Shown: positions 6,369-55,010, counted from the first letter of the stretch. The stretch: DNA of 64,000 nucleotides from a virus (IMGVR_UViG_3300045988_145033:96001-160000); one strand, 5' to 3'. Translations and numbers: made by a program. Notes: generated by a model not told the origin, from the letters alone.

Positions 6369-6396
6369 GTCTACGTTTATTATATATAATTGAAAT
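6369..6396 (-). promoter_or_regulatory. early promoter, class A: TTTCAATTATATATAATAAACGTAGAC
   Basis: One of 11 copies of TATATWATAWAYGTAGAC, all on the minus strand. About 95 nt upstream of the ATG at 6292. Confidence 0.5.
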
Positions 6397-6410
6397 ATAA
6401 AATCGTGTAA

Positions 6411-6671
6411 TTATCGTTTATTCCAATCTTCGTCAGGGTCGAAACTATTTTCTTTCTCCCATTTAACTTGAGCTTCTCTTGCATTACGAACAGCATCATT
6501 TCCATTATTTCTTGTAATAGATGCACCTTCTGTTACAAAGAAAAAACTCATATTATATTTCTTACAAAGTGCTTCCACTTCCTTACATAACTTTCTCGCC
6601 TTTTCCAACTTCTTTTCATCAATAACCTCTTTTTGAGACTCTGCTATCTTTCTTATTAAGCTTGTATTCAT
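6411..6671 (-). CDS. hypothetical small protein, 86 aa
   Basis: ATG at 6671 preceded by AAGGAGG. The ORF-track N-terminal extension (to 6818) would overlap the divergent + gene and lacks an RBS. Confidence 0.45.
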   Translation of the reverse strand: MNTSLIRKIAESQKEVIDEKKLEKARKLCKEVEALCKKYNMSFFFVTEGASITRNNGNDAVRNAREAQVKWEKENSFDPDEDWNKR

Positions 6672-6715
6672 ATTAAAACCTCCTTTATTTAATCGTTTGC
6701 TACAAAACCACCAGA

Positions 6716-6727
6716 AACACCCGAATA
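6716..6727 (+). promoter_or_regulatory. late promoter AACAcccgaaTA
   Basis: AACA-N6-TA, 28 nt upstream of the ATG at 6755. Confidence 0.45.
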
Positions 6728-6754
6728 TATTAATTTTAAAAGGAGGACTCGAAT

Positions 6755-8212
6755 ATGTATGTAAAAAAAGGTATTCCTTATAATATAGTAAGTGATGACG
6801 GATATACTGGTAATTCATTTATTACAATGTCTGATATAATTGCTAATGATATAATAATGGAAGCGATTTTTAATAATAAATCAAGAGAGCAAATAAAAGG
6901 ATTAGAAACAGAACCAGTTTCTCGTGAACTTTGTGAAAGTGTACTAGATAATATAAAATCTGATGAAGTTGAATATTCTATAGATAAGATAATAGATATA
7001 GATGCAATATATACATCATCTATACAATCACTAGATAGAGAATTCAATGTAGATGAAGTAACTTTACAAGGATGCGAATTTATTGTAGATGATTATGGTT
7101 CTTCATTCACTGTAATAAAAGTGGTAACTTATGAAAATATCGAAGGAAATGAACTTAATCAAGTTCATTATTTACTACCGCTTTTCCACCATGATGTAGT
7201 TCTTGCAAATAAAGTAACGTATGCTTTACACGTATCTGGAAATGGAGAATGTGAATTTTTAAGACTTCCTATGATAGAATCAGGAGACACGTATGCTATT
7301 GATAGTCGTGAACTTGTAAATAAACTATTGGAAACTAAAGCATATTCTATGTGGTTTATGAACCTTATACAACATAAGAAACTTTTAGTAGTTCCGAAAG
7401 AAGATTTCGCTGTTCAACTTGCAAGACTTGGAATTGTGAACTTTATACCAGCACAAGGATTAGGAGTTTATCTTGACGGACAAAATAAAACTCTTATGGG
7501 TAATATAGTTGACAATAACATAAGACTTCAAAAGTTTGACGTTGATGAGATTAATAATTCTAAAGATATGATAGTTATGTATGATAATCGTTCATACAAT
7601 GAAAATCTTCTAAATCATAGACTTCCTATATCTATATCTATATTAGATGAGGGACAAGTTATGTATGCTGGAATGTATATGGACGATACATTTATAGAAA
7701 TAGCAGATAATAGAATGAAGTATATGGAAGCTGACACTTCTACTAAAATTGGAAGGCTTGCTGAAAAAGCTAAAAGAATACCAAGACAAATAGTAGAAAA
7801 AGGTGAAAAGCTTATATCTGAGCTTAGAGGCTTTATGGTTGAATGGAGAAAGGCAAAAGATGATGCTTTAAGAGAAAAGGTTATAAATGATGAGTTTATT
7901 CCTATTCTTGATAACTCTATGCAATGGCTTGTAGGTGCCGCAACTGGATTTGGAATATACTTTCTTGTCACAGCAAACCCACTTATTGCTATACTTGGTG
8001 GATATGGAGCTAAAGTTGTAAAAGGAGTTCATGATGCTAAAACTCGTGAAAGAGTTTTAAAGATGATAAAAGATGAACTCGAAATAATAGATGAGAAGAT
8101 AAACGATGCTAAAAACTCAGATGACAGAAAGAAGAAATATGCTCTTATGAGAATTAAGCAATCACTTGAAAAGAAGCTACTTGGTATAGTAAGAACTAAG
8201 AAATACGTATAA
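6755..8212 (+). CDS. head-module protein, 485 aa, C-terminal hydrophobic segment (portal or prohead protease candidate; function not assignable)
   Basis: RBS AAGGAGG. AACA-N6-TA element 28 nt upstream of the ATG. First gene of the plus-strand head block. Confidence 0.5.
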   Translation: MYVKKGIPYNIVSDDGYTGNSFITMSDIIANDIIMEAIFNNKSREQIKGLETEPVSRELCESVLDNIKSDEVEYSIDKIIDIDAIYTSSIQSLDREFNVDEVTLQGCEFIVDDYGSSFTVIKVVTYENIEGNELNQVHYLLPLFHHDVVLANKVTYALHVSGNGECEFLRLPMIESGDTYAIDSRELVNKLLETKAYSMWFMNLIQHKKLLVVPKEDFAVQLARLGIVNFIPAQGLGVYLDGQNKTLMGNIVDNNIRLQKFDVDEINNSKDMIVMYDNRSYNENLLNHRLPISISILDEGQVMYAGMYMDDTFIEIADNRMKYMEADTSTKIGRLAEKAKRIPRQIVEKGEKLISELRGFMVEWRKAKDDALREKVINDEFIPILDNSMQWLVGAATGFGIYFLVTANPLIAILGGYGAKVVKGVHDAKTRERVLKMIKDELEIIDEKINDAKNSDDRKKKYALMRIKQSLEKKLLGIVRTKKYV

Positions 8213-8229
8213 GGAGGTGTAATACTTAT

Positions 8230-8896: not shown

Positions 8897-8908
8897 AACA
8901 GCAGTTTA
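8897..8908 (+). promoter_or_regulatory. late promoter AACAgcagttTAGATTAAAA
   Basis: Upstream of the putative capsid gene. Confidence 0.5.
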
Positions 8909-10795: not shown

Positions 10796-10807
10796 AACAG
10801 CGACGTA
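10796..10807 (+). promoter_or_regulatory. late promoter AACAgcgacgTA
   Basis: Upstream of 10839. Confidence 0.4.
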
Positions 10808-10838: not shown

Positions 10839-11204
10839 ATGAATATTGAAATTAAAGAAGATTTTGTAGCACCCTTTTTAAATGTAGACCCTACTTGGAT
10901 AGATGAGCTTATAGCATCTAAAACCGATATACAAAATAAGGTAATTTGTATAGAAGAGTTATCCGAGCTTACTAAAGAGATTACAAAGGAGATAAGAGGT
11001 GAAGATAATAAATATGAGATAGTTGATGAAATGGTAGATGTTATAATATCACTTCAAATTATGGCAAGACTGTATCATATAACTCAAAATACTCTTGATA
11101 GTGCGTATAATAAAAAGATGAGAAGAAACCTAGAGAGGATTAGAGTTAATAAGTGGACAAGTGATATTATAAATAAGATAAAGGGTGGTGTAAATGGGAA
11201 TTAA
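10839..11204 (+). CDS. MazG-like nucleoside triphosphate pyrophosphohydrolase
   Basis: EELSELTKEITKE ... EIVDEMVDVIISLQIMARL matches the MazG/HisE E-x2-E ... E-x2-D helix motifs. 121 aa. Late element upstream. Confidence 0.5.
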   Translation: MNIEIKEDFVAPFLNVDPTWIDELIASKTDIQNKVICIEELSELTKEITKEIRGEDNKYEIVDEMVDVIISLQIMARLYHITQNTLDSAYNKKMRRNLERIRVNKWTSDIINKIKGGVNGN

Positions 11205-13957: not shown

Positions 13958-14000
13958 AAAAAAAAATAAAGGGAGGCGAAAGCCTCTCCTTATTTTTATT
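13958..14000. terminator. bidirectional terminator between convergent genes (gggaggcgaaagcctctcc)
   Basis: A9 upstream and T-run downstream. Confidence 0.5.
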
Positions 14001-15039
14001 CTGTCATTTCTCTTAGCTCTTTATAAAGCTTTTCATTAAATAGCATTTCTTCTCTATCAAGTTCCATAACATAGCAAGTTATCTCAGTTCTTTCAAGAGT
14101 ACGAGATGTCCAGAATTCTACATATCCACTATTACGTGGGTAGAATTCTTTTGGAACATTTACCATATCTATAAAGTAGACTCTCTTATTTGCTATTTTA
14201 AGAGTCTTATACTTTTCAGGTATTTCATTCCAATCATCAGAAGGAAGCTCAAGAACTTGTACTCCAGAAAGTCCAACTTGAGTTGCAAACTCAGTATTAA
14301 TATGATTACCCTTATGATACGCTAAGATAAATGGTGTAGTTGTATCTACAGTATTTTTCTTAGAAGACGCATAATAGTTATTTAATTGGTCTTCCGTCAT
14401 ATACTTAGATGCTACTTTAAATCCGAATTCGTATATAAGATAACCTATACAAGCATCAGCTATCTTATTATCGTTATCGAATTTAATATGCTTTAAAACG
14501 TTAGATGAGTAATTACCCACCTTTAAAAGTTTCCAAAGCATAGGAAGATTTAGGAAGTTTGCTGAAATTTCGGGAATTACACCTTTATCAAGCTTGTACA
14601 TTATATCATCATAAGGTGCAAGTCCTAACGCATATACCACATTTCTACAGTGATATATACGGATTTTCTTTTCAGAAGCTTCTACAATATCGGTAAATCT
14701 TGTGTGAGCATCATTATCCCACTCACCACTATCGTAGAAATCTATCATCTCAAATTCAGCCGTTTGAGACGTCTTATCAAACTCGCCAGTGTATCTTAGA
14801 AGTTTGTGAGATATATTTCCACCACTTCTATGAGATACGCATACAACATCACCTTTATTAAGTATAAATAAACCGTGATTGTCATTTGATAAAGTTCCAC
14901 CGGTACGGATAAAAATACAATCTTTCTTATGACCATATTTATCTCCGATAAGTTCAGTATGTCCTGAGTTAGTCATACCTCCCCCTTTTTCCCAGAATGC
15001 TGGGTAACCCTTTTTAGTAAATGCTATTTGTAATTTCAT
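13996..15039 (-). CDS. hypothetical early protein, 347 aa
   Basis: Stand-alone cassette with a TA-rich early promoter variant upstream and a terminator downstream. RBS AAGGAGG. Confidence 0.5.
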   Translation of the reverse strand: MKLQIAFTKKGYPAFWEKGGGMTNSGHTELIGDKYGHKKDCIFIRTGGTLSNDNHGLFILNKGDVVCVSHRSGGNISHKLLRYTGEFDKTSQTAEFEMIDFYDSGEWDNDAHTRFTDIVEASEKKIRIYHCRNVVYALGLAPYDDIMYKLDKGVIPEISANFLNLPMLWKLLKVGNYSSNVLKHIKFDNDNKIADACIGYLIYEFGFKVASKYMTEDQLNNYYASSKKNTVDTTTPFILAYHKGNHINTEFATQVGLSGVQVLELPSDDWNEIPEKYKTLKIANKRVYFIDMVNVPKEFYPRNSGYVEFWTSRTLERTEITCYVMELDREEMLFNEKLYKELREMTE

Positions 15040-15100
15040 AATATCATTCCTCCTTTTAATTTTAAATTAAGACATTATTGCCTTTTAATATTATTTATTA

Positions 15101-15123
15101 CTATAGTTATTATATATAATCAA
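15101..15123 (-). promoter_or_regulatory. early promoter variant
   Basis: GATTATATATAATAACTATAG upstream of 13996..15039. Confidence 0.35.
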
Positions 15124-15144: not shown

Positions 15145-15190
15145 TAAAAAAAATAAGGAGAGGTTTGTGAACCCCTCCAAATTATTTTAG
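15145..15190 (-). terminator. intrinsic terminator (ggagaggtttgtgaacccctcc)
   Basis: A-run, hairpin, T-run. Confidence 0.5.
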
Positions 15191-15438
15191 ATTTTAGTCA
15201 CAGTAATAAATGCAGAGAATATGACAGTATTGTTACCGCTGTCATAAGTTGATGAATATTGTATTTGCGGAATACCATTATATCCATCATTCTTGAATTT
15301 ACAAACCATTTCCAAAACTAAATCTGTTAAAGGAGTTGCCCCCTTTTCAGAAGATGTCCAAACGTGTCCCATACAAACATCTCCTCTCATTTCTCTTTCC
15401 AATCTGTCTCCAATAGTTTCATTAAATAATGTAGTCAT
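15187..15438 (-). CDS. hypothetical early protein, 83 aa
   Basis: Class A promoter, conserved leader hairpin and terminator. Confidence 0.5.
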   Translation of the reverse strand: MTTLFNETIGDRLEREMRGDVCMGHVWTSSEKGATPLTDLVLEMVCKFKNDGYNGIPQIQYSSTYDSGNNTVIFSAFITVTKI

Positions 15439-15480
15439 TTTAAACCTCCTCAGGTATTTTAAATTTTGGCATTAAGAACT

Positions 15481-15496
15481 CTCAACCCTTGTTAAG
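15481..15496 (-). promoter_or_regulatory. conserved 5'-leader hairpin (CUUAAC-AAGG-GUUGAG, one G.U)
   Basis: Same leader position as the other cassettes. Confidence 0.5.
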
Positions 15497-15517
15497 TTTA
15501 TTCTCTTGCTCTTACTT

Positions 15518-15547
15518 TTATTATATATAATTGAAAATAAAAATTAC
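15518..15547 (-). promoter_or_regulatory. early promoter, class A
   Basis: TTTCAATTATATATAATAAAAGTAAGAG upstream of 15187..15438. Confidence 0.5.
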
Positions 15548-15569: not shown

Positions 15570-15612
15570 AAAAAAAAAATAAAGGTGAGGATAAACCCCA
15601 CCAATATCTTTA
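15570..15612 (-). terminator. intrinsic terminator, same family (ggtgaggataaaccccacc)
   Basis: Conserved 55-nt module that includes CTATGTTCC. Confidence 0.6.
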
Positions 15613-17867: not shown

Positions 17868-17915
17868 AGAATTTACCTCCTTTAAATTTTTATTTGACTT
17901 TGGCTTGATTGCCTT

Positions 17916-17937
17916 GTCTTATGTATATAATATATAG
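17916..17937 (-). promoter_or_regulatory. class B promoter (6-gene early operon)
   Basis: TATATATTATATACATAAGAC. Confidence 0.45.
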
Positions 17938-17965: not shown

Positions 17966-18006
17966 AAAAAAAAAATAAAGGTGAGGATAAACCCCACCAA
18001 TATTCT
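17966..18006 (-). terminator. intrinsic terminator, same family
   Basis: Near-identical to 15570-15612. Confidence 0.6.
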
Positions 18007-18007: not shown

Positions 18008-18241
18008 TTATTCATTTAAAGTTAATCTGCGTTTTAGAAGATATATATAATCTTCTAAGATTTTAATATCTGTAGAGAAGTCTTCTCCAAGATATTTATT
18101 TTTTATTGGTGCGTCTGGATTATGTATCCAGTTTGAAGCCTTCATTTGTTCTGAGACTTCTCCTTTCTTTAGTGCAAACAGTCTTCCTTCGGCTGTTTTA
18201 ATTTTGTTTTGGATTACTTCGATTTCTTTTTTATTTAACAT
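18008..18241 (-). CDS. hypothetical early protein, 77 aa
   Basis: Class A cassette. Confidence 0.5.
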   Translation of the reverse strand: MLNKKEIEVIQNKIKTAEGRLFALKKGEVSEQMKASNWIHNPDAPIKNKYLGEDFSTDIKILEDYIYLLKRRLTLNE

Positions 18242-18282
18242 ATTATCTACCTCCTCAGGTATTAAATTTAGACGTCGGAATT

Positions 18283-18298
18283 CTCAACCCTTGTTAAG
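18283..18298 (-). promoter_or_regulatory. conserved 5'-leader hairpin (CUUAAC-AAGG-GUUGAG)
   Basis: Same. Confidence 0.5.
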
Positions 18299-18310: not shown

Positions 18311-18337
18311 CTCTACATTTATTATATATAATTGAAA
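18311..18337 (-). promoter_or_regulatory. early promoter, class A
   Basis: TTTCAATTATATATAATAAATGTAGAG upstream of 18008..18241. Confidence 0.5.
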
Positions 18338-37396: not shown

Positions 37397-37419
37397 GTCC
37401 TTACATATATTATATATAA
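37397..37419 (-). promoter_or_regulatory. class B promoter
   Basis: TATATATAATATATGTAAGGAC upstream of 35627..37366. Confidence 0.45.
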
Positions 37420-44604: not shown

Positions 44605-45870
44605 TTATTTATTATTATTTTCGTCTAAAGCTGTATATCTTCTTAATAAATCTACTAAGTATTGTACATCTTTAGATTCATAGTTACCAGACTCAAATGC
44701 CGCATAAAGTTCAGCAAAACCATACGCACCTATAGGTACTTCCATTCCACCTTCAGATAGAAGCTTGTATTCATTTTGTGTCATATCTGTAGCTTCATAT
44801 CTTTCTTTATTACCGTCATTTACTTTAGGTAATTTAATAAGAGCTGTTCCTGATACATATTCTTCAGGAACTACTGTAAATTTAACCTTTAGAATATGAG
44901 ATAATTTCTTAAGTTGAGAAAGTGTTACACTATCACTTTCTATAGCATTACATATTGCTTTTGCTTGAGAAACCATTTCTCTTGGAACATAGAAAGTTTG
45001 TCCACTTATAGCTTCTTTTATGTAGTTGAAGTTCATAGGGTCTATATCACCTTCTGTGAATACATAGTTAAATTCTATATACTCATCAATATCACCACCA
45101 AATATGTCAGAAACTCCCATAAGCTCAGACAGTCTGTATTCTGATATATCATTACCAGAAGCAATATTATATATAACATACGATGCTATCTTATTACTAC
45201 TTGTGTAATCTCTTGATAGTTTTAGATTAGCTAAATCTACTACATTATGGTGTATTAAATCTGATACAAACTTCAAGCCATTTCCCGGAACTATATTTAT
45301 ACCATTCCAAGAAAGTGTATTAGATATATCAAATTCATCAGGATATGTTATTCCCATCTTACTTGAATGTATTTGAACTGAGCTAAGTTCTTCTATTGGA
45401 ATAGCGATACCTTCTTCTGTATTAGATTTAACATAATGCTTACCGTCTTTACTGTAAACTGATAAATCATAACTTGGATATAGAGCGTCTTTATGAGCTA
45501 CCCACCCAAAGCATACCTTTCTTACATCAAAATCTTTATATTTACTTTCTAATACGAGATGAGATGAATTGTTCCATACAATATCTTTCAAGTCCTTTTC
45601 TGGAATAAGATGAACAGCTTTACCGCTATCAACACTCGGTACTACAACTAAAGAAGTTAGCTCACCAAAATTATCCTTTTGCTTTCTAAGTATTCTTTCA
45701 GCATCACTATTTTTTGGTTTTTTGTTTTCAAAAAGTATTGCGTTTTCTCTCTCTTGTAGTTCCTTTTGTTTCTTTTCTTCTAATGCTTTTGCATCTTTAA
45801 CAGCTTCACGAGCAGCTGTTCCAGCTCCTTTTGCAATTTCTGCATTTTTCTTTGTCATTCTAATTGTCAT
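44605..45870 (-). CDS. hypothetical protein, 422 aa (start at ATG 45870, MTIRM...), adjacent to the RNAP genes
   Basis: AAGGAGG 8 nt upstream of the ATG at 45870. The track's longer ORF would overlap the upstream gene. Class B promoter 50 nt upstream. Confidence 0.5.
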   Translation of the reverse strand: MTIRMTKKNAEIAKGAGTAAREAVKDAKALEEKKQKELQERENAILFENKKPKNSDAERILRKQKDNFGELTSLVVVPSVDSGKAVHLIPEKDLKDIVWNNSSHLVLESKYKDFDVRKVCFGWVAHKDALYPSYDLSVYSKDGKHYVKSNTEEGIAIPIEELSSVQIHSSKMGITYPDEFDISNTLSWNGINIVPGNGLKFVSDLIHHNVVDLANLKLSRDYTSSNKIASYVIYNIASGNDISEYRLSELMGVSDIFGGDIDEYIEFNYVFTEGDIDPMNFNYIKEAISGQTFYVPREMVSQAKAICNAIESDSVTLSQLKKLSHILKVKFTVVPEEYVSGTALIKLPKVNDGNKERYEATDMTQNEYKLLSEGGMEVPIGAYGFAELYAAFESGNYESKDVQYLVDLLRRYTALDENNNK

Positions 45871-45906: not shown

Positions 45907-45926
45907 GCCTACATATATAATATATA
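45907..45926 (-). promoter_or_regulatory. class B promoter embedded in an inverted repeat
   Basis: cgccTATATATTATATATGTAGGCG. The GTAGGCG half-site is the reverse complement of the CGCCTA start of the element. Confidence 0.45.
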
Positions 45927-45937: not shown

Positions 45938-47824
45938 TTATTCTTCATCATTGAAATTAGGATTGTTTAATTTAACACCCATAGCCATAAATAGAGCATT
46001 TACATTTTGTATACTTTCTTGCTCTGTCATAGAATTTATGTATTTCAAATCATCAGGGTGAAGTGAGTTCACTTGAACGTCAGCAACAAGCGATGATTTT
46101 CTAACTGGTGTATTTCTTATTCTACTTTCACCTGTTCTTAATATAATACCACGAGAGTCAAAGCTACCCTTTGCTCTTAGAGACAACTGAGTTTCAGCAA
46201 CTTGCTTCAAAGGTGTTACAAAAAGTTTAGATACAAATGCTTCTCCTAAACACATTTCTCCATGTTCTGTATTCATATAAACTTTAGTTCTTTTTACGTT
46301 AAGTCCTACAGAGTTCATATAGTTACGAGCTTCATAGCAAGTACCAATAGTAGTTCCACTATGATAAGTAGATTGATACCAACGAATTTGTGGGTCTTTT
46401 ATAAAATCTTCAAATCCGCCATTTTCAAATTCATACTTATAAGCTTCATACATCTTCTTATCCATAATAGATAATATCTTTAAGATATGAGTTTTCATTT
46501 CATCTAGTGGCTTTAGCTTCTCTCTTATAAATCTTTCTATTACCATTGTGATATAAGTTTGAAACATTTCCATCGGAACTTCCATAATAGCACGATTAAA
46601 TAGTGCTAGACAGTTTCCAAGATATTCAAGGTTTCCATATTCTTTTGTGTAATATTTACCACTATTAAATACACTAGAAACTGTGAACTTATTTCCACAT
46701 CTACCTGTAATCTTTTGTCCATTTATAGGAACTTCTCTATCGACAGTTGTAATCTTTAAAACTATTGCTTTCTTTGAAAGTATTTTCTTATATTTAAAAC
46801 CGCCTTCTTTATCATAGATAGTTCTTAAGAAGTTATACTTATCTATAAAATCATATGAGAATTTAGATTCAGAATACTCATCATTTTCATAGAATTCTTT
46901 TAAGGAATCGAGTACCTCTCTTTCATACTTTCTAGTAGCTTCTATAAGTCCCGCAAGATATGTATTTTGACATTGTTCTCCAAGTTTTTGTCTACAAGTT
47001 ATATCAACTACTTTTCCTCTTGCATATACTCTTTTGTCATTCTTATTAACTGAATCCATTCCACTTGCGAGTTTCACTCTTTGATACTCTCCCTTTTGCT
47101 TTGCTATTGCTAAAAGTAAATCATTTTGTATATCTTCTCCTACAAGTGGGAAAGGTCTATAAGTATCATCAGTTCCATATAGATTCTTTAGTATATCATT
47201 ATCGACATCTATTATCTCCTCCGTAACTTGATACTTCCAACCAGCAAATCTTTCAGCTAGGCTCGTAGAAATCAGTCCTGCATCTTCGATAGATTTGACA
47301 TCAATAGATAATACAGATAAAGCATTTACTCCCCATTTATACTCCATATCCTCTCCATATGAATTAGTACGTATGATAGATTCGTCTTTTGGTATTTCAT
47401 CTCCTTCTTTATACGAAGATAAGTCATCTATCATTTTAACTCCATAGCCAGCTCCAGTTTCTTCATATCCGTGGAACTCTATATAGTTAAATTCATCGTT
47501 TTCTTTATCATATAGAATATACGAAGTCACACCACAATATTCTCCATTTATATACTTCGGAATAGCTTTACAAAGTGTATAGTTATTCTCGGCAAATATA
47601 TTTTTAGTAGATTTAAGAATATCATACGAGTATGCTGTATCTACTATTGGAACTTCACCGTTCTCTATTGGACGATACTGGTTCGAGGCATTCGAGAACA
47701 TATTACCTCTATTTTTGGAAACCATACCCTCGTGTGGTATTATGTTACCTTTACCATTGAACCTATCGAGCATTTCATTCCATTCAGGAATTTCCTTGTA
47801 TAGAGTTGTCTTTAATTCTTTCAT
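45938..47824 (-). CDS. multisubunit RNA polymerase beta subunit, C-terminal module
   Basis: GQKITGRCGNKF matches beta GDKMAGRHGNKG. Downstream HGEMCLGEAF matches FGEMEVWALEAYG. N-terminal GNMFSNASNQYRP resembles motif NMQRQAVP. 628 aa. Confidence 0.6.
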   Translation of the reverse strand: MKELKTTLYKEIPEWNEMLDRFNGKGNIIPHEGMVSKNRGNMFSNASNQYRPIENGEVPIVDTAYSYDILKSTKNIFAENNYTLCKAIPKYINGEYCGVTSYILYDKENDEFNYIEFHGYEETGAGYGVKMIDDLSSYKEGDEIPKDESIIRTNSYGEDMEYKWGVNALSVLSIDVKSIEDAGLISTSLAERFAGWKYQVTEEIIDVDNDILKNLYGTDDTYRPFPLVGEDIQNDLLLAIAKQKGEYQRVKLASGMDSVNKNDKRVYARGKVVDITCRQKLGEQCQNTYLAGLIEATRKYEREVLDSLKEFYENDEYSESKFSYDFIDKYNFLRTIYDKEGGFKYKKILSKKAIVLKITTVDREVPINGQKITGRCGNKFTVSSVFNSGKYYTKEYGNLEYLGNCLALFNRAIMEVPMEMFQTYITMVIERFIREKLKPLDEMKTHILKILSIMDKKMYEAYKYEFENGGFEDFIKDPQIRWYQSTYHSGTTIGTCYEARNYMNSVGLNVKRTKVYMNTEHGEMCLGEAFVSKLFVTPLKQVAETQLSLRAKGSFDSRGIILRTGESRIRNTPVRKSSLVADVQVNSLHPDDLKYINSMTEQESIQNVNALFMAMGVKLNNPNFNDEE

Positions 47825-47862: not shown

Positions 47863-47882
47863 TGTCTACATATATAATATAT
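47863..47882 (-). promoter_or_regulatory. early/middle promoter, class B (drives the RNAP beta-C gene)
   Basis: TATATATTATATATGTAGAC, about 50 nt upstream of the ATG. Confidence 0.5.
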
Positions 47883-47888: not shown

Positions 47889-47922
47889 AAAATAAAGGGT
47901 GGGTTTAACCACCCCAGTATTT
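47889..47922 (-). terminator. intrinsic terminator (gggtgg-gtttaa-ccaccc)
   Basis: Downstream of the lipoprotein gene. Confidence 0.55.
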
Positions 47923-48552
47923 TTAATTTCCAGTTAATTCTCTAGCTCTTTTTGCAAAGTCTGTAAAATTTTGACTTTGATATTGAACTGAAGTTACAAC
48001 GTGGTCCACTCTTTTGATTTGGTTGTTATACCATTGAATAGCTTCTTGCGGACCATATGTTCTTTCTATTCCGTTTTTGATAGATGCGATATGTTGTAAG
48101 AAATCTTTAGATTGTCCTAATATTAATATCTTATCATCACCTTGAATAGTGAATGGAATAAATATAGCCATTCTATCCCAAGTAATCATTACTTGTCCGG
48201 AATAGTCATTGAAGTATATCATATAAACATAGTGTCTTCTAACTCCAATACTATCAGCATACTTATCTACTCTAGCTACAGTATCTCCAATACTGTATCC
48301 TTTATAAGTAGATTGTAATACCTTATTAGTTATAGATAAATCAAATTCATTGAAATCTCTAACATCCCACGCTTCAGTATCATTTATATAATACTTAACG
48401 TAATTAAGATATTCAGATGAAGATAAATAACTGTAGTCTACATTACTCGCGTATCCCACATCTTGATTCTTTCTACCAGCACAATAAGCATCACAACTTA
48501 CAAACATTAAACTCATTACCATAACCATTAAAACCTTTACTAATTTTTTCAT
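47923..48552 (-). CDS. secreted protein or lipoprotein, about 209 aa
   Basis: Signal peptide MKKLVKVLMVMVMSLMFVSC with Cys at the end of the h-region. ATG at 48552 preceded by GGAGG. Own promoter-like element and own terminator. Confidence 0.5.
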   Translation of the reverse strand: MKKLVKVLMVMVMSLMFVSCDAYCAGRKNQDVGYASNVDYSYLSSSEYLNYVKYYINDTEAWDVRDFNEFDLSITNKVLQSTYKGYSIGDTVARVDKYADSIGVRRHYVYMIYFNDYSGQVMITWDRMAIFIPFTIQGDDKILILGQSKDFLQHIASIKNGIERTYGPQEAIQWYNNQIKRVDHVVTSVQYQSQNFTDFAKRARELTGN

Positions 48553-48601
48553 AATAAATACCTCCATAAATTTTTTATTTTGCTTTCGGATATTTCCGTC
48601 G

Positions 48602-48625
48602 CTTACGTTTATTATATATGTATAC
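48602..48625 (-). promoter_or_regulatory. early promoter variant (drives the lipoprotein gene)
   Basis: ATACATATATAATAAACGTAAGCGAC. Confidence 0.4.
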
Positions 48626-48660
48626 AAAAAAGAAAGGTGTAAGTAAATTACACCAATCCT
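48626..48660 (-). terminator. intrinsic terminator (ggtgtaagtaaattacacc) overlapping the HTH gene stop
   Basis: Hairpin plus TTTCTTTTTTG on the minus strand. Confidence 0.5.
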
Positions 48661-48989
48661 TTTAGTGATTTGAATTTTTTAATTAGGTTATAGACCTTAA
48701 CCAAATCGCTTTGAGATAGACTAACTATCTCACTATTTATTTCAGAAATGTAATCTACCAAATCCTCACATAAAAGGTAACGGATATCTACCTTCAATGC
48801 TCTTGACAAGTTAGATAAAGATGAGACCTTAATTTTCTTAAACACACAAGTCTCGTACTTGTGAACTTGCATATATGTCTCTCCAATTAAGTCACCAAGT
48901 TCACTTTGAGAAAGCCCTAATCTAGTTCTTTCTCTGAAAATCCTTCTTGCCATTTCTCTAGTCAATTCCACTCTTAGTATTGCTGTCAT
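48648..48989 (-). CDS. XRE-family helix-turn-helix transcriptional regulator
   Basis: LGLSQSELGDLIGETYMQVHKYE is a typical HTH_3. 113 aa. Class A promoter plus leader. Confidence 0.6.
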   Translation of the reverse strand: MTAILRVELTREMARRIFRERTRLGLSQSELGDLIGETYMQVHKYETCVFKKIKVSSLSNLSRALKVDIRYLLCEDLVDYISEINSEIVSLSQSDLVKVYNLIKKFKSLKGLV

Positions 48990-49031
48990 ATCTAGTACCT
49001 CCTTAAGGGTATTAAATTATCCCGATGAGTT

Positions 49032-49047
49032 CTTAAGCCTTCTTAAG
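49032..49047 (-). promoter_or_regulatory. conserved 5'-leader hairpin (CUUAAG-AAGG-CUUAAG)
   Basis: Same. Confidence 0.5.
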
Positions 49048-49058
49048 TTTACTCTTGG

Positions 49059-49086
49059 GTCTACATTTATTATATATAATTGAAAA
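49059..49086 (-). promoter_or_regulatory. early promoter, class A (drives the HTH regulator)
   Basis: TTTCAATTATATATAATAAATGTAGAC. Confidence 0.5.
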
Positions 49087-51105: not shown

Positions 51106-51117
51106 TAAAATCGTGTT
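51106..51117 (-). promoter_or_regulatory. late promoter AACAcgatttTAGATTAA
   Basis: Minus strand, upstream of 50808..51080 and the helicase operon. Confidence 0.5.
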
Positions 51118-51134: not shown

Positions 51135-51160
51135 AATATGGGGTTTTCACCCCATATTAT
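51135..51160 (-). terminator. intrinsic terminator overlapping the SLT gene stop (atatggggt-tttca-ccccatat)
   Basis: Palindrome spanning the TGA. Confidence 0.45.
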
Positions 51161-52178
51161 AAACTATTTTTCCTTTTAATATATTATTTGCTTCTTTCCT
51201 TGAAAGTCCTAAAGCTACCATATTATTTACAAGTTTAGTTCTATAACTATTTGCATAATATTTAGGAGAACCACAATACTCTCCCATAGCTCTATCGTAG
51301 CTTCCGTGCTTTTTAAGATACTTAAAATATCCTAGCATATACTCTATACTAACCATAGGGTCTTTTAATCTTTCGTGGTTATACGGAGTATTGTAACCAA
51401 GTACATTACTATGTATATACTCTCCTGTACCTCTTACTATTTGTCCTAAGCCTGTTGCTGATGATTTCTTATTTTTAGCACTAGCATAGAAGTTTGATTC
51501 TCCCGCAACTATTCCTAAAACTACATAAGGATTTACATTATATTCTCTTGCCTTATCAAATACATCATCTAAGAAGTCATAAGTCATATAAGATACATCT
51601 CTTCCATATGATTTAGCTTTAGCTATTATTATATCATATTTTGCATATTTATTCAGAAGTCTAGCTTCATTCTTTTCAACTTCTTTTTCTATCTCTTCTT
51701 TATACTCTGATTTAGTTTCAGGTATCTTAAGTTTCCCATTTATTATATCAATTTCTACATCTCTATAATACATAGTAGGAAAGCTTATATGGTATACACT
51801 ACCAAGTGGAGTTAGATTAAATACCTTTTTAACTGAAGCATCTTTTCCTTTTGGTTTATATACTTGCTTCGCTTCTTTATGCTCTCCTATAGTCTTTATT
51901 TCTTTTTCTTCTATTTCTTTACCACTTTTAACTATAACCGCATCTTTTTTAGATTCTAAATCTGCTATTTTCTTTTTAAGTTCAATATTTTCTTTTGTAG
52001 CAACGTCAAGCTCATACTTTGCATTTTCTAAATCCATTTTAATTCTATTAGCTTCTTTCTTTCCAGCATGAGAAGCTATCATATAAGTCATTGCAAAGTT
52101 CATTATAAATATTATACCCGTAAATAGTATAAACATTTTGAACGCCCGTTTATTTAATTTTCCTTTATTATCTACCAT
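51147..52178 (-). CDS. membrane-anchored lytic transglycosylase (SLT domain) with a coiled coil
   Basis: N-terminal TM. SLT catalytic motif GESNFYASAKNKKSSATGLGQIV. Confidence 0.55.
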   Translation of the reverse strand: MVDNKGKLNKRAFKMFILFTGIIFIMNFAMTYMIASHAGKKEANRIKMDLENAKYELDVATKENIELKKKIADLESKKDAVIVKSGKEIEEKEIKTIGEHKEAKQVYKPKGKDASVKKVFNLTPLGSVYHISFPTMYYRDVEIDIINGKLKIPETKSEYKEEIEKEVEKNEARLLNKYAKYDIIIAKAKSYGRDVSYMTYDFLDDVFDKAREYNVNPYVVLGIVAGESNFYASAKNKKSSATGLGQIVRGTGEYIHSNVLGYNTPYNHERLKDPMVSIEYMLGYFKYLKKHGSYDRAMGEYCGSPKYYANSYRTKLVNNMVALGLSRKEANNILKGKIVYNMG

Positions 52179-52189: not shown

Positions 52190-52873
52190 CTAGTAATCTT
52201 TATCTAAAAATCCCGGCTCTATACCCATACCGTAGTAACAAGCCGTAATGTATTTAAGTGCTACTTTGCCATCTTCAGGTGCTTCAGGAATATTAGTTCT
52301 TCCTGTATTTCTTATATTAGTATATGCTTCCTTTTTAGCTATATCATTATCTGCTCTAAAAGTAAACATTTCTTCTATAACTTTTTCATATCCTCCAGAT
52401 AGAAGTTGAGCAACTTCGTTATCTGAAATACCTGCACCTTTTGAACCGTTTACAACTTGGTTAGTCTTATCTCTCATTACTATATCTTCAGAGTGACGGT
52501 TTTCCCCTTGAGCCGTTTGCATAAGCTTTATAACAGGAACACGAAGTATTATCTGTTTCTTGTCTGATATGGGTGCTCCTATTTCTGGGTCATTCATCAT
52601 AAAAGGCATAGTAACTCTTTCCTCTAAATTACGTCCAAGCACTTCTTTATAAGACTTTGCAATATTTGCTAAAGTAAAAGTCTTTTCAAGTGGAAGCTCT
52701 TTTACTCTCATAACTCCCTCTTTTAGAAACGCTTTAAACTCATTATCGTCCATAGCTCCAAATAATACTTTATAATGATTATAATTTGCAGCCTTTTTTG
52801 TATCTCCACCTTCAGCTATAAGTAACATATCTAAAAGTCTTTTCTTACATTTTTCTATTTTAGCATCAGCCAT
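52190..52873 (-). CDS. hypothetical protein, 227 aa
   Basis: RBS GGAGG. Confidence 0.45.
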   Translation of the reverse strand: MADAKIEKCKKRLLDMLLIAEGGDTKKAANYNHYKVLFGAMDDNEFKAFLKEGVMRVKELPLEKTFTLANIAKSYKEVLGRNLEERVTMPFMMNDPEIGAPISDKKQIILRVPVIKLMQTAQGENRHSEDIVMRDKTNQVVNGSKGAGISDNEVAQLLSGGYEKVIEEMFTFRADNDIAKKEAYTNIRNTGRTNIPEAPEDGKVALKYITACYYGMGIEPGFLDKDY

Positions 52874-52882
52874 TTAAACCTC

Positions 52883-54031
52883 CTAACTCATCTTAACGAT
52901 GATATCATATATTAAAACTATGTGTAGCTTTAAAAAGCTTCTTGGGAACTCTCTTCCTCTTATTTGATATTTAGCTTTCATTGCTTCAGGAAACGTCATA
53001 TCAATATGCTTTGCTTTTGCTACTATTCCTACGAAGTTACGCTTCATCGCTTCAAATGAAAATGATGGAGCTTTTTCTCCATAGAAATCAACTAGATACT
53101 CACAGTAAGTAATTACATCTTTTAAATGTTCTTCATATATCTTTTTAAATTCTTCATAATACATAGTATTATTTGTACGACGAACGAGTGATGCGTCAAG
53201 TCCTAATGATAACTTTTCAGCAATTTGTGCTTTAAGCGAAGCAAGTTTTATAGTTTCGTTTTCTACAGTTATATTAGTTTCTTCATCATATACGTCCTTT
53301 TGGTCATATAATCTTTCGTTCTTGTATTGGTCATATAAATCTCTTACACCTCTCATATTATGATTTACACGAGTTCTTATACTCATCAAGATATATACAA
53401 CAACATCATCTATTAAAAGCTCATCTTTTTTAAATTTATTTTTAATAAACTCATCTGTTACAGTTTTCATTATAGCCTTAACCATACCTAAAGATGAACC
53501 TTCAGATTTTAAAAGATACTTTTGTGACATTACTGGTTTATTATCTTTCATTCCATATACTATAAATCTCATTATCCCCGGATTTAAACTACCATTTTTA
53601 GTATAGTATTTATACATAAGTCCAGTTAAGAATTTAATACCTAGAAATTCTATAAACTCTCTTTTTCCAGTTTCTAAATAAGATATAAGTAAGGCTAAAG
53701 ATAATGGGTCATTAGGAGTATCCCAGCCAAGTTTTAATATTCTATGTGTATGAGCAAATGCTCTAAACTCACCCTCATCAATTCCATAAGCCTGCATGAA
53801 TTTTCTTCTTTCTCCATTTCCAAATACAACAAGTTCAAGAAGTGGAGTAGCAAGAGCATCAGCATTTCTTGTCATATAATCAGCTATCAGTCTTAGAACT
53901 TGTGGGTGCTTCTTAGTTATGTCTTTACCGCCGAAAAACTCATATATTTCTCTTGTAGCTTCTTTTGGGTCATAGACTTTCAGATTAATATCTGAACTTT
54001 TCTTTTCTATGTCCTTATCGTTAAACTTCAT
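52883..54031 (-). CDS. hypothetical protein, 382 aa
   Basis: RBS AGAGGTG. Confidence 0.45.
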   Translation of the reverse strand: MKFNDKDIEKKSSDINLKVYDPKEATREIYEFFGGKDITKKHPQVLRLIADYMTRNADALATPLLELVVFGNGERRKFMQAYGIDEGEFRAFAHTHRILKLGWDTPNDPLSLALLISYLETGKREFIEFLGIKFLTGLMYKYYTKNGSLNPGIMRFIVYGMKDNKPVMSQKYLLKSEGSSLGMVKAIMKTVTDEFIKNKFKKDELLIDDVVVYILMSIRTRVNHNMRGVRDLYDQYKNERLYDQKDVYDEETNITVENETIKLASLKAQIAEKLSLGLDASLVRRTNNTMYYEEFKKIYEEHLKDVITYCEYLVDFYGEKAPSFSFEAMKRNFVGIVAKAKHIDMTFPEAMKAKYQIRGREFPRSFLKLHIVLIYDIIVKMS

Positions 54032-54077
54032 AAATTATCACCTCTTTCTCAAAAAAATGTTAGTGACAGATATGAAA

Positions 54078-54116
54078 ACCAAAAATAAAGGGTGAGGATA
54101 AACCCCACCCAATATT
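54078..54116 (-). terminator. intrinsic terminator, same family (gggtgaggataaaccccaccc)
   Basis: Downstream of 54117..54950. Confidence 0.55.
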
Positions 54117-54950
54117 TTATCTTTTCTTTAAGCTACCTTTGAAACTTGGTTTTTCAACCGAACCTTCACCAGCTTTATTTATAGCGTTACCTGTTCCAAA
54201 AGGAGATTTGAATTCCTCTCTTCTTATTGGACCATGTGCTGTAAGTCTTGGACCGAAACTTTCACGTTTGTTAATTTCTGTAAAAGTTTCAACTATTTCA
54301 CTACCTTCAACGAAAGCATCAGCCGCAGTTGTTGCAGGTACGACACTAGCTTGACTTGCTATCTTACCATTAGTAAGATTAATTAAGTCTTGGAATATAC
54401 CGATTTCCCCGTCGATATATTGTAAGAAGTTCGCTCTTGTATATTTCATAGCGTCTTCTGTTAAAAGTCTTAGTGCATAGTTTTGTCCTACGAATCCCTT
54501 GTATGCTGGGTTTTCCATACCAGAGTTCGCAACGTCAGTTAAAGTTCTTGCAGGTATTGACCAATATTGCATATCTTTAACCATTTTTAATAAGTCTCTC
54601 GCAGTTTCAAATAAGTTCAAAAGACTTCTTTGTTCTTCTCCAACCTTTACCATATTTGGTTGGAAAAATGTATAGGCATATTTACCAGTAGCTTCATTTT
54701 TAGCTACTCCATAAACAGTGCCTTTTAAAGTTAAAGTATCTTCACCAATTCTGTAAGTACGAGTTTCCTCTTTAATCTTTTGTAAAGATACCTCGAAACC
54801 TGATACGTTTCCTGTCGTATCGATTTTTGGAACAACCCCTATATCTAGTTGTCCCGGATTGATGTGTTCTATGATATCGTTTACTGATTCACTGAACACT
54901 CCTTGCACATTTCTTGTTGATGGTTTGACATTCTTAAAGTTTACTGTCAT
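54117..54950 (-). CDS. hypothetical protein, 277 aa
   Basis: RBS AAGGAGG. Class B promoter. Terminator downstream. Confidence 0.5.
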   Translation of the reverse strand: MTVNFKNVKPSTRNVQGVFSESVNDIIEHINPGQLDIGVVPKIDTTGNVSGFEVSLQKIKEETRTYRIGEDTLTLKGTVYGVAKNEATGKYAYTFFQPNMVKVGEEQRSLLNLFETARDLLKMVKDMQYWSIPARTLTDVANSGMENPAYKGFVGQNYALRLLTEDAMKYTRANFLQYIDGEIGIFQDLINLTNGKIASQASVVPATTAADAFVEGSEIVETFTEINKRESFGPRLTAHGPIRREEFKSPFGTGNAINKAGEGSVEKPSFKGSLKKR

Positions 54951-54988
54951 TTTTAATTCCTCCTTAAAATTTTTTATTTAACCTCTCG

Positions 54989-55010
54989 GTCTACGTATAT
55001 AATATATATT
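54989..55010 (-). promoter_or_regulatory. class B promoter
   Basis: TATATATTATATACGTAGAC upstream of 54117..54950. Confidence 0.5.

What the first reader, a model, noticed from the sequence alone, without database searches (positions are those of the whole stretch)
6369..55010. Second promoter family TATATWATAWAYGTAGAC (11 copies, all on the minus strand) driving small early genes, an HTH regulator and the RNAP beta gene
There are two sub-classes.
- Class A is TTTCAATTATATATAATAAA(C/T)GTAGAC, about 95 nt upstream of the start.
- Class B is TATATATTATATA(T/C)GTAGAC, about 50 nt upstream.
- They differ mainly at two positions (TATATAAT versus TATATTAT) and share the GTAGAC box.

The family is distinct from the AACA late motif. 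It precedes unknown small genes, the XRE regulator, the lipoprotein gene, the RNAP beta-C gene and the 35627 replication-block gene. This suggests an early or middle class read by a different polymerase, either host sigma-A or an injected virion RNAP.

TATATTAT is a reported early -10-like element of AR9, but this is quoted from memory and is not certain.
Basis: partly seen in the sequence, partly recalled or inferred. Interest (0 to 1): 0.65.

Follow-up and report, generated by a model that had tools for sequence, protein, structure and literature searches.

The report
AR9-type early promoters, Fusobacterium phage
The repeated TATATWAT…GTAGAC element is real and is almost certainly the early-gene promoter of a ~180 kb Fusobacterium phage that carries its own two RNA polymerases, the same promoter code known from Bacillus phage AR9. 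Here it is joined to hairpins at the start of the early messages.

Summary
There are 11 sites, all on the minus strand, all intergenic, each 50-94 nt upstream of a minus-strand start codon. Chance would give about 0.2.

The window is about 90% identical to Fusobacterium nucleatum phages JD-Fnp1/4/6/7. These encode an AR9-like non-virion RNA polymerase and orthologues of AR9's virion RNA polymerase.

- **Match to AR9.** The core (c)TATATATTAT is identical to the mapped AR9 early promoter (AAATATATATTAT-6N-G+1). A matrix built from 38 mapped AR9 early promoters ranks five of the sites as its top five window hits.
- **Gene context.** The AR9 g089 orthologue (nvRNAP beta-C, 45938-47824) sits directly behind a site. 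So do all three recognisable nvRNAP genes in JD-Fnp1.
- **Late class.** A disjoint set of 16 genes carries AR9's late motif, AACA-6N-T(A/G).

Best reading: early promoters read by injected virion RNAP. This rests on comparison only; there are no transcript data.

New details:
- The 'GAC' of the GTAGAC box is the 5' strand of a 5'-terminal RNA hairpin.
- Class A is a fixed promoter plus three-helix-leader module with covariation and no Rfam match. It drives small, hypervariable or swapped ORFs, much like T4 PeSL cassettes.

A host sigma-70 reading cannot be excluded.

The parts
6369..6386 (-). Class A early promoter core TATATAATAAACGTAGAC, preceded by TTTCAATTA. It drives the 144-aa ORF 5858-6292.
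   Evidence: Exact match. Matrix score 53.8. AR9-matrix rank 3.
6326..6372 (-). Class A leader RNA, a three-helix hairpin. P1 is AGAC/GUCU, P2 is GGAAU/(A)GUUCC, P3 is CCUGAG/CUCAGG, and the loop is AAGG.
   Evidence: MFE -16.4 kcal/mol, z = -4.45. Descriptor hit. Covariation.
15099..15116 (-). Hybrid site TATATAATAACTATAGTA upstream of the 347-aa ORF 13996-15039. It has no class A hairpin.
   Evidence: Matrix score 23.6. Conserved in JD-Fnp1 at 40193.
15510..15527 (-). Class A promoter TATATAATAAAAGTAAGA. It drives the 83-aa ORF 15187-15438; the leader hairpin lies at 15469-15509.
   Evidence: AR9-matrix rank 2.
17917..17934 (-). Class B-type promoter TATATTATATACATAAGA. It heads the operon that starts at 17867. 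The leader hairpin is GAC..GGC/GCC..GUC at about 17896-17918.
   Evidence: GGC/GCC covaries to GGG/CCC in JD-Fnp1 copy 123853.
18311..18328 (-). Class A promoter TATATAATAAATGTAGAG. It drives the 77-aa ORF 18008-18241; the leader hairpin lies at 18269-18315.
   Evidence: The ORF is replaced by an unrelated one in JD-Fnp1.
37399..37416 (-). Site TATATAATATATGTAAGG upstream of the 579-aa ORF 35627-37366 (function unknown).
   Evidence: Conserved in JD-Fnp1 at 64911.
45907..45924 (-). Class B promoter TATATTATATATGTAGGC. The downstream gene most likely starts at 45870, giving a 421-aa product (44605-45870).
   Evidence: The leader starts with a GGC-GAAA-GUC mini hairpin.
47864..47881 (-). Class B promoter TATATTATATATGTAGAC, directly upstream of the nvRNAP beta-C gene.
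   Evidence: Exact match. Terminator-like hairpin at 47896-47915 just upstream.
45938..47824 (-). Non-virion RNA polymerase beta-like subunit, the orthologue of AR9 g089 (beta-C).
   Evidence: phrog_3295 at 6.5e-42. PDB 7S00 chain C at 7.8e-27. tblastn hit to AR9 73267-75069.
48601..48618 (-). Hybrid site TATATAATAAACGTAAGC. It drives the lipoprotein-like ORF 47923-48552.
   Evidence: Terminator-like hairpin at 48636-48654 upstream.
49059..49076 (-). Class A promoter TATATAATAAATGTAGAC. It drives the XRE/HTH regulator 48648-48989; the leader hairpin lies at 49021-49059.
   Evidence: The XRE cassette is absent from two IMG/VR relatives.
54989..55006 (-). Class B promoter TATATTATATACGTAGAC. It drives the 277-aa ORF 54117-54950.
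   Evidence: Exact match. Top AR9-matrix hit in the window. The leader starts with a GACC-GAGA-GGUU hairpin.

Best explanation

**Proposed sequence of events.**
1. The virion RNA polymerase, packaged in the capsid and injected with the DNA, recognises a highly conserved AT-rich element of about 10 nt: (c/t)TATATAT(T/A)AT.
2. It starts transcription a few bases downstream, within the YGTA of 'YGTAGAC'. The start is most likely the G, or possibly the A two bases on.
3. The resulting transcripts encode the non-virion RNA polymerase subunits, an XRE regulator, and many small genes of unknown function.
4. The non-virion enzyme then reads the separate AACA-(6N)-TA/G late class.

**The leaders.** The first transcribed bases (the GAC of the box) pair with a downstream GUC to close a 5'-terminal hairpin in most early leaders. 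In class A this hairpin is a fixed three-helix structure of about 45 nt with conserved unpaired bases (UAAA internal loop, A-N-GG loop).

**What is shown.** The motif, its statistics and its placement; homology of both polymerase sets; identity of the core to mapped AR9 promoters; RNA covariation.

**What is inferred.** Which polymerase reads the sites, the exact start site, early timing, and the role of the hairpins. The hairpins most likely protect the 5' end from 5'-end-dependent RNases, or bind a phage factor that controls these messages.
For: **Non-random, oriented, intergenic.**

**Match to AR9.**
- AR9 early consensus AAATATATATTAT-(6N)-G+1.
- 38 mapped AR9 early promoters.
- The matrix built from them puts five of the 11 sites at window ranks 1-5 and nine of the 11 in the top 30.
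- AR9 P001 reads 'tttttcaattaTATATTATaaagatG', close to the class A upstream region.

**Polymerase sets.**
- The window gene 45938-47824 is the AR9 g089 orthologue. In AR9 the g087-g089 region lies behind a mapped early promoter (P087, TSS 72079).
- The JD-Fnp1 nvRNAP genes _72, _99 and _153 match PDB 7S00 chains C, d and D. Each is directly preceded by a TATATTAT site.
- JDFnp1_14 and JDFnp1_95 best match AR9 genes annotated 'virion RNAP subunit'. They lie on the + strand without the motif.

**Wider clade.** The same ATATATTAT-(6N)-G(TA) element sits upstream of nvRNAP beta-C in a Staphylococcus jumbo phage and in intergenic regions of the Listeria phage LPJP1 locus.

**Late class.** AACA-(6N)-T[AG] sits upstream of 16 other genes. 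That accounts for 16 of only 26 occurrences in the window.

**Published rule.** Every RNAP-encoding jumbo phage has a conserved AT-rich motif of about 10 nt near -10 upstream of its early operons (PMC7598289).

**Hairpins.**
- 32 of 39 leaders have a hairpin starting within 7 nt of the G, against 18.7 +/- 3.3 in shuffles.
- For class A, all 28 distinct copies fold the same way.
- On alignment A1, 91% of cells are paired and 28 cells show double changes against 7.9 expected; 0 of 500 shuffles reach this.
- The structural descriptor hits only behind class A promoters: 12 of 12, with none elsewhere.
Against: - There are no transcript 5' ends, kinetics or rifampicin data for this phage.
- Class A contains a perfect TATAAT. 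F. nucleatum promoters rely on a strong -10 with a weak -35, so host RNAP could read at least class A.
- The conserved G lies 4 nt after TATATWAT, not 6 nt as in AR9, Staphylococcus and Listeria phages. The register relative to the start site therefore differs or is mis-assigned.
- Virion packaging of the second polymerase is inferred from orthology only. The describing paper has no proteomics.
- AR9 vRNAP is reported to be intolerant of some core changes, yet class A differs at one core position. One mapped AR9 early promoter (g157) does have TATATAAT.
Confidence: 0.72

Rival explanations
1. These are strong host sigma-70-type early promoters, read by F. nucleatum RNA polymerase immediately after injection, as in T4, T5 or T7 class I. 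TATAAT/TATTAT would be the -10 box and the T-rich upstream DNA an UP-like element.
For: - Class A carries a perfect TATAAT, and class B is 5/6.
- The start would fall about 7 nt downstream, the same place as in the vRNAP model.
- Host promoters have a pronounced -10 and only a weak -35 (PMC11005410).
- T4-type PeSL cassettes are sigma-70 early promoters with a similar cassette-like architecture.
Against: - The core is identical over 10 nt to AR9 early promoters, which are used without host-type recognition.
- The phage group encodes orthologues of the virion RNAP.
- Positions outside a -10 hexamer are invariant, namely TATAT upstream and YGTA downstream.
- No -35 appears at proper spacing for most sites, and bipartite sigma-70 matches are not enriched (58 found against 60.2 expected).
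- RNAP-encoding relatives are reported to develop independently of host RNAP.
Confidence: 0.15
2. This is a middle-class promoter read by the non-virion RNAP with an alternative specificity factor, analogous to the phiKZ middle class.
For:
- phiKZ has AT-rich middle promoters not read by purified nvRNAP.
- Two sub-classes exist here.
Against: - The nvRNAP subunit genes themselves sit directly behind these sites. nvRNAP therefore cannot be what first reads them.
- The motif equals AR9's early consensus, not a middle one.
- phiKZ middle motifs are weak and centred near -24.
Confidence: 0.05
3. The repeats are copies of a mobile or duplicated intergenic cassette, kept by recombination and not by any promoter function.
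For: - Class A modules are about 100 nt long, near-identical, and flank hypervariable or swapped ORFs.
- An XRE cassette indel lies between two copies.
Against: - Class B sites share only the core and the 5' stem logic, with unrelated flanks.
- Orientation and distance to the SD/ATG are fixed.
- The core matches functionally mapped promoters in AR9.
- Cassette mobility and promoter function are compatible, as in PeSLs.
Confidence: 0.03

Closest known systems
Early (virion-RNAP) promoters of Bacillus phage AR9/PBS1, consensus AAATATATATTAT-(6N)-G+1 (Lavysh et al. 2017, PMC5312081)
   Same: - The 10-nt core TATATATTAT is identical in class B, and class A differs at one position.
- It is an AT-rich element near -10 followed by Y-G.
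- It is placed before nvRNAP subunit genes and many small unknown genes.
- It is paired with an AACA-(6N)-TA/G late class.
- The phage encodes orthologues of both AR9 polymerases.
- AR9 P001 even shares the TTTTCAATTA upstream sequence.
   Different: - The host phylum is Fusobacteriota, not Bacillota, and the genome is about 180 kb (below the 200 kb 'jumbo' line).
- RNAP proteins are only about 23-29% identical.
- The conserved G is 4 nt, not 6 nt, after the element.
- The AAA at -19..-17 is not conserved.
- The start region GTAGAC is strongly conserved and forms a 5' hairpin. None of the nine AR9 early leaders examined has a comparably stable 5'-terminal hairpin (at most -2.1 kcal/mol).
phiKZ-family vRNAP early promoters in general (review PMC7598289)
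   Same: - A motif of about 10 nt, AT-rich and highly conserved, centred near -10 upstream of early operons and detectable by bioinformatics alone.
- Early genes include the nvRNAP subunits.
   Different: - The sequence is specific to the AR9/Staphylococcus/Listeria branch.
- This phage's RNAP is far closer to AR9 than to phiKZ (7.8e-27 against 0.0028).
PeSL (promoter-early stem-loop) cassettes of T4-like phages (PMC2839356, PMC4122927)
   Same: - Repeated composite intergenic modules of about 100 bp, combining an early promoter with a stem-loop, sit in front of small ORFans.
- The flanked genes are the most variable. ORFs behind class A are 59-74% identical or replaced, against 90-97% for neighbours.
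- There is a cassette indel between two copies.
   Different: - PeSL promoters are sigma-70-type and read by host RNAP, and their stem-loops act as terminators.
- Here the promoter is AR9-type. A separate conserved terminator lies upstream, and the class A stem-loop lies inside the transcript without a U-tract.
5'-terminal stabiliser stem-loops of bacterial and phage mRNAs (for example the ompA 5' UTR; from general knowledge, not tested here)
   Same: The hairpin begins within a few nt of the inferred 5' end in 32 of 39 early leaders.
   Different: - The start site is not mapped.
- Class A has conserved unpaired bases that a pure stability element would not need.

Membership tests
AR9-type vRNAP early promoter | Highly conserved AT-rich element near -10 matching AAATATATATTAT | tested here: met
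   TATATATTAT is identical in class B, and class A has one substitution. The AR9 matrix built from 38 mapped promoters ranks 5 sites as window hits 1-5 and 9 of 11 in the top 30. The AAA at -19..-17 is not conserved here.
AR9-type vRNAP early promoter | Conserved start (T-1, G+1) 6 nt downstream of the element | tested here: inconclusive
   A conserved Y-G is present, but 4 nt after TATATWAT. At 6N the base is the A of GTAGAC. No 5'-end data are available.
AR9-type vRNAP early promoter | The phage encodes a virion multisubunit RNAP distinct from the non-virion one | tested here: met
   This was shown in the 90%-identical relative JD-Fnp1. _14 matches AR9 g145 and _95 matches AR9 gp188, both annotated as virion RNAP subunits. 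Neither matches nvRNAP PDB chains. These genes lie outside the window. Virion packaging itself was not tested.
AR9-type vRNAP early promoter | Precedes early genes, including the nvRNAP subunit genes | tested here: met
   In the window, site 47864-47881 precedes the g089 orthologue. JD-Fnp1 sites 75429, 102303 and 146966 precede the three nvRNAP genes.
AR9-type vRNAP early promoter | Transcripts appear within minutes, independent of host RNAP and of new protein synthesis | not testable with these tools
   This needs infection RNA-seq or primer extension with rifampicin and with chloramphenicol.
AR9-type vRNAP early promoter | A separate late class, AACA-(6N)-TA/G, on other genes | tested here: met
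   16 genes carry the motif, accounting for 16 of 26 window occurrences. None overlaps the 11 early-motif genes.
Host sigma-70 promoter | -10 hexamer TATAAT | tested here: met
   TATAAT is exact in the TATATAAT sites, and TATTAT is 5/6 in the others.
Host sigma-70 promoter | -35 hexamer TTGACA-like at 16-18 bp | tested here: not met
   Only site 49076 scores 10/12, and bipartite matches are not enriched (58 against 60.2 expected). The caveat is that F. nucleatum -35 boxes are weak.
PeSL-type regulatory cassette | Repeated composite of early promoter plus stem-loop flanking variable ORFans, with indels between copies | tested here: met
   Class A module. ORF hypervariability and replacement. 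XRE cassette indel.
PeSL-type regulatory cassette | Sigma-70-like promoter read by host RNAP, with the stem-loop acting as a terminator | tested here: inconclusive
   The promoter is AR9-type. The class A stem-loop has no U-tract and lies downstream of the start. A separate terminator module lies upstream. Function was not tested.
Known RNA family (Rfam 15) | Class A leader matches a curated covariance model | tested here: not met
   There are no matches at gathering score across the window, and only chance-level hits at E<=10 on the leader.

The most novel reading that the evidence does not exclude
The class A module (AR9-type promoter fused to a fixed three-helix 5' leader with conserved unpaired UAAA and A-N-GG bases) may be a new cis-regulatory RNA. 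A phage factor would recognise it to time or shut off a set of immediate-early, rapidly exchanged host-takeover or anti-defence genes. The module would also act as the recombination handle that shuffles those genes.

More broadly, conservation of the TATATATTAT code from Bacillota phages to a Fusobacteriota phage, at about 25% polymerase identity, suggests that the sigma-less virion RNAP reads this element with conserved core residues. Comparison across these phages could then find those residues.
Probability: 0.3. Interest if true: 0.7.

Novelty: new member of a known kind. Interest (0 to 1): 0.5.

Why it matters
- **Reach of the system.** It extends the two-polymerase, host-independent transcription programme of AR9/phiKZ-type phages to phages of Fusobacterium nucleatum. 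These are candidates for phage therapy against a cancer-associated bacterium. Their genomes are about 83% 'hypothetical', and their describing paper does not mention polymerases or promoters.
- **Practical use.** It gives a ready map of early and late genes for these phages.
- **Open question.** How virion RNAPs recognise promoters is unsolved. A promoter core conserved across very distant hosts and about 25%-identical enzymes is a useful comparative handle.
- **Testable additions.** The 5'-hairpin rule and the class A leader are new features that can be tested directly.

Tried and rejected
- **Rfam.** Scans of the window and of a class A leader found nothing.
- **Generic sigma-70 scan.** Bipartite matches were not enriched and do not single out the sites.
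- **Bacterial genomes.** A scan of 185,579 genomes for the 18-mer gave only scattered single matches in unrelated taxa, as expected by chance in 596 Gb. This was uninformative.
- **Neighbouring proteins.** PDB sequence searches with the 421/430-aa and 434-aa neighbours, to find the gp226-like specificity subunit, gave no hits. Pfam and PHROGs scans of most early ORFs also gave nothing.
- **RNAalifold.** On the raw MAFFT alignment it recovered only 4 pairs of P3, because P1 and P2 were misaligned. I used per-sequence folds, a named structure and a descriptor instead.
- **Distant relatives.** The search for related loci with the RNAP gene returned only 97-98% identical relatives.
- **DNA operator idea.** I considered that the class A palindrome is a DNA operator for the XRE protein. 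I rejected it as the main reading because the helices covary in sequence and use G.U pairs that exist only on the sense strand.
- **Attenuator or antitermination idea.** I considered the hairpin as a terminator/attenuator or a put-like antitermination RNA. There is no U-tract, and class A units look monocistronic, each followed by a terminator.
- **Alternative pairing.** An alternative pairing between P3 and the RBS was seen in some copies only and was dropped.
- **Paralogy.** I tested whether the class A ORFs are paralogues of one another; they are not.
- **AR9 comparison.** I tested whether AR9 early leaders share the 5' hairpin. None of the nine examined has a comparably stable 5'-terminal hairpin; one (g001) shows a very weak fold of -2.1 kcal/mol.

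Full report

Yes. The stated pattern TATATWATAWAYGTAGAC has 4 exact matches against 0.00 expected. It has 8 matches at <=2 mismatches against 0.17 expected.

An iterated position-weight matrix finds 12 hits in the window, all on the minus strand, and 11 of them are convincing. Their 18-mer coordinates are 6369-6386, 15099-15116, 15510-15527, 17917-17934, 18311-18328, 37399-37416, 45907-45924, 47864-47881, 48601-48618, 49059-49076 and 54989-55006.

Every site is intergenic and lies 50-94 nt upstream of a minus-strand start codon with a Shine-Dalgarno sequence. Two ORF calls that appeared to swallow a site simply have a later true start (44605-45870 and 47923-48552).

**2. What genome is this?**

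The window is about 90% identical to Fusobacterium nucleatum myophages JD-Fnp1/4/6/7, which are 175-180 kb. I assembled JD-Fnp1 from five fetched pieces. The same matrix finds 25 sites there, all on the minus strand. A looser look adds a few more.

The paper describing these phages does not mention polymerases, promoters or transcription. No paper in the library links Fusobacterium phages to non-virion RNAP or to Chimalliviridae.

**3. Two phage RNA polymerases.**

- **Non-virion set.** Window ORF 45938-47824 is a phage RNAP beta-like subunit (phrog_3295, 6.5e-42). It matches chain C of the AR9 non-virion RNAP structure 7S00 at 7.8e-27, against 0.0028 for phiKZ gp71. By tblastn it hits AR9 73267-75069, and the phiR1-37 match is annotated 'beta subunit, C-terminus'. 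In JD-Fnp1, _153 matches 7S00 chain D (1.8e-22) and _99 matches chain d (1.4e-5).
- **Virion set.** A second set, _95 (1484 aa) and _14 (930 aa), lies on the + strand. It does not match the nvRNAP chains. Its best AR9 matches are genes annotated 'virion RNAP subunit', gp188 and g145.

**4. Comparison with mapped AR9 promoters.**

AR9 early promoters are AAATATATATTAT-(6N)-G+1. They are active at 5 min and do not need protein synthesis. AR9 late promoters are AACA-(6N)-TA/G (PMC5312081).

From Table S2 of that paper I built a matrix of 38 mapped early promoters.
- Scanned over the window, its top five hits are five of the 11 sites, and nine of the 11 are in the top 30.
- Class B shares TATATATTAT exactly.
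- Class A's upstream TTTTCAATTA is also found in AR9 P001 ('tttttcaattaTATATTATaaagatG').
- One mapped AR9 early promoter (g157) has the class A-type TATATAAT.

The same ATATATTAT-(6N)-G(TA) element lies upstream of the nvRNAP beta-C gene of Staphylococcus phage UFV_DC4 and in intergenic regions of Listeria phage LPJP1.

A published review states that every RNAP-encoding jumbo phage has such an AT-rich element of about 10 nt near -10 before its early operons, and that these include the nvRNAP genes (PMC7598289; PMC13282480). Here the beta-C gene in the window, and all three recognisable nvRNAP genes of JD-Fnp1, are directly preceded by a site.

**5. The contrasting late class.**

AACA-(6N)-T[AG] occurs 26 times in the window on both strands. 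Sixteen of those occurrences lie within 90 nt upstream of a gene start on the same strand. They cover 16 genes, none of which has the early motif. The window therefore carries both halves of the AR9 promoter code on disjoint gene sets.

**6. What the 'GTAGAC box' is.**

The conserved G is only 4 nt after TATATWAT, whereas it is 6 nt in AR9, Staphylococcus and Listeria phages. The start is therefore either this G (Y-1, G+1, as in AR9's T-1, G+1) or the A two bases on.

The GAC that follows is the 5' strand of a hairpin in the transcript. When the box varies, its partner compensates:
- GGC/GUC
- GCC/GGU
- ACC/GGU
- GACC/GGUU
- ACACA/UGUGU

Several class B hairpins have GNRA loops. Overall, 32 of 39 leaders from the window and JD-Fnp1 have a hairpin starting within 7 nt of the G, against 18.7 +/- 3.3 in shuffles (maximum 27 of 100). 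The hairpin most often starts at the G-A-C. None of the nine AR9 early leaders with mapped starts shows a comparably stable 5'-terminal hairpin; eight have none and one (g001) folds at only -2.1 kcal/mol. This is a difference from AR9.

**7. The class A module.**

Class A is a fixed unit: T-run, CAATTA, TATATAATAAAN-GTA(G/A)(A/G)N, then a three-helix hairpin of about 45 nt. The hairpin has P1, then P2, then a UAAA/A internal loop, then P3 and an A-N-GG loop. It is followed by UAAUUUAA and the SD.

- Twenty-eight distinct copies come from the window, JD-Fnp1 and 17 IMG/VR loci. All fold into this shape on their own. The four window copies have z-scores of -2.2 to -4.5.
- On alignment A1, with P2 and P3 named, 91% of cells pair. 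There are 28 cells with changes on both sides against 7.9 in shuffles (0 of 500 reach this). Sliding the partner by one column drops pairing to 54%.
- G.U pairs occur on the sense strand only, which argues for RNA and against a DNA operator.
- A structural descriptor hits 4 places in the window and 8 in JD-Fnp1. All are on the minus strand and directly behind a class A promoter, with none elsewhere. Shuffles give about 0.15.
- There is no Rfam match.

**8. Cassette behaviour.**

Class A units drive single small ORFs: 144, 83 and 77 aa, plus the 113-aa XRE/HTH_3 protein. These ORFs are not paralogues of one another.

Between the window and JD-Fnp1, these ORFs are the most divergent parts of the region. 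They show 59%, 66% and 74% nucleotide identity, and one is wholly replaced. Neighbouring genes are 90-97% identical, and the promoter-leader regions are kept at 76-90%.

In two IMG/VR relatives, the stretch of about 440 bp holding the XRE ORF, a terminator and the next promoter is absent. There the class A promoter and hairpin join directly to the lipoprotein gene's RBS. This resembles the PeSL promoter-stem-loop cassettes that shuffle ORFans in T4-like phages (PMC2839356, PMC4122927). The difference is that the promoter here is AR9-type and the stem-loop lies inside the transcript.

**9. Most likely mechanism and rivals.**

- **Best reading, about 0.72.** Injected virion RNAP initiates at these sites and makes the nvRNAP subunits and accessory early proteins. 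5'-terminal hairpins protect or regulate the messages.
- **Host sigma-70, about 0.15.** This cannot be excluded. Class A has a perfect TATAAT, and F. nucleatum promoters depend mainly on the -10 box. Against it stand the AR9 homology, the presence of vRNAP genes, the invariant positions outside the hexamer, and the lack of -35 boxes.
- **nvRNAP 'middle' class, about 0.05.** This is unlikely because the nvRNAP genes themselves sit behind the sites.

The function of the hairpins is inference. The conserved unpaired bases in class A suggest a specific binding partner and not stability alone.

**10. Verdict.**

The finding is real and correctly interpreted in outline. It is a new member of a known kind, namely AR9/phiKZ-type vRNAP early promoters, in a host phylum and genome-size range where this has not been described. 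It adds three features:
- a shorter spacing between the core element and the conserved G;
- a 5'-hairpin rule for early leaders;
- a structured, cassette-like class A module.

Noticed in passing
window 6716-6727(+), 8897-8908(+), 10796-10807(+), 21759-21770(+), 57098-57109(+), 5780-5791(-), 19356-19367(-), 26797-26808(-), 28154-28165(-), 39920-39931(-), 51106-51117(-) and others: AACA-(6N)-T[AG], the AR9 late-promoter consensus, lies 14-45 nt upstream of 16 genes. That accounts for 16 of the 26 occurrences in the window, and none of these genes has the early motif. In AR9 this motif is read in the template strand and requires deoxyuridine, which raises the question of whether this phage's DNA contains dU.
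   Followed up: partly
window 5832-5850, 15584-15602, 17980-17998 (-), each followed by a T-run and CTAYGTTCC; also 15157-15178: A repeated terminator module with conserved flanks, ATATTGGTGGGGTT(tatc/cgc)CTCACC-TTTATTTTTTTTTT-CTAYGTTCC. It sits just upstream of both early and late promoters, with at least 9 copies in JD-Fnp1. The conserved CTAYGTTCC after the T-run is unexplained.
   Followed up: partly
window 52190-52873 (-): A 227-aa protein matches a phage 'RNA polymerase beta subunit' family (phrog_3233, 1.7e-21). It lies in an AACA-type (late) unit with an SLT transglycosylase (51147-52178). It is possibly a small virion-RNAP subunit and is annotated 'polymerase basic protein 2' in JD-Fnp1.
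   Followed up: partly
window 48553-48989 (-) versus L012:10735-10900 and L015:8526-8690: The XRE regulator gene, its terminator and the next promoter (about 440 bp) are missing in two IMG/VR relatives. The class A promoter-hairpin is fused there to the lipoprotein gene's RBS, giving an indel bounded by two promoter copies.
   Followed up: yes
window 54969, 49493, 45889, 44595, 34636, 16337 (-) versus 8932(+), 28127(-), 19332(-): There are two stereotyped ribosome-binding contexts. AATTTTAAGGAGG occurs on early-strand genes, including ones internal to operons. AAAATAACTAGGAGGTATAAA(T)ATG occurs on several AACA-class genes.
   Followed up: no
window 18008-18241 (-) versus JD-Fnp1 43456-43719: At the same position behind orthologous class A promoters, the two phages carry unrelated small ORFs of 77 aa and 87 aa, with no blastp hit at 1e-3.
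   Followed up: partly
window 30385-30402 (-): A weak matrix hit (TATTTAATATCTGTAGGA, score 24) lies antisense inside the + strand gene 28271-31417. It may be chance or an internal antisense start.
   Followed up: no
window 55878-57068 (-): A 396-aa ORF with a TTG start matches phage endonuclease and homing-endonuclease families (phrog_15137 at 2e-25; phrog_3339). It is annotated 'DNA gyrase subunit A' in JD-Fnp1.
   Followed up: no
window 10839-11204 (+): A MazG-like NTP pyrophosphohydrolase (PF12643; phrog_2245) sits behind an AACA site. This could matter for nucleotide-pool editing if the phage uses a modified base.
   Followed up: no
class A leaders, about 10-25 nt upstream of the ATG (for example window 6297-6320, 18246-18262, 48994-49012): Short ACCU...AGGU, UACC...GGUA or GAC...GUC pairings bracket the Shine-Dalgarno sequence in many class A copies. 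They might be small SD-sequestering hairpins.
   Followed up: no
AR9 Table S2, -40 to -28 of about 9 early promoters: A second conserved box, (C)CGTATTAAAA, lies upstream of a subset of AR9 early promoters, including several the authors call 'pre-early'. It is loosely reminiscent of the CTAYGTTCC box here.
   Followed up: no
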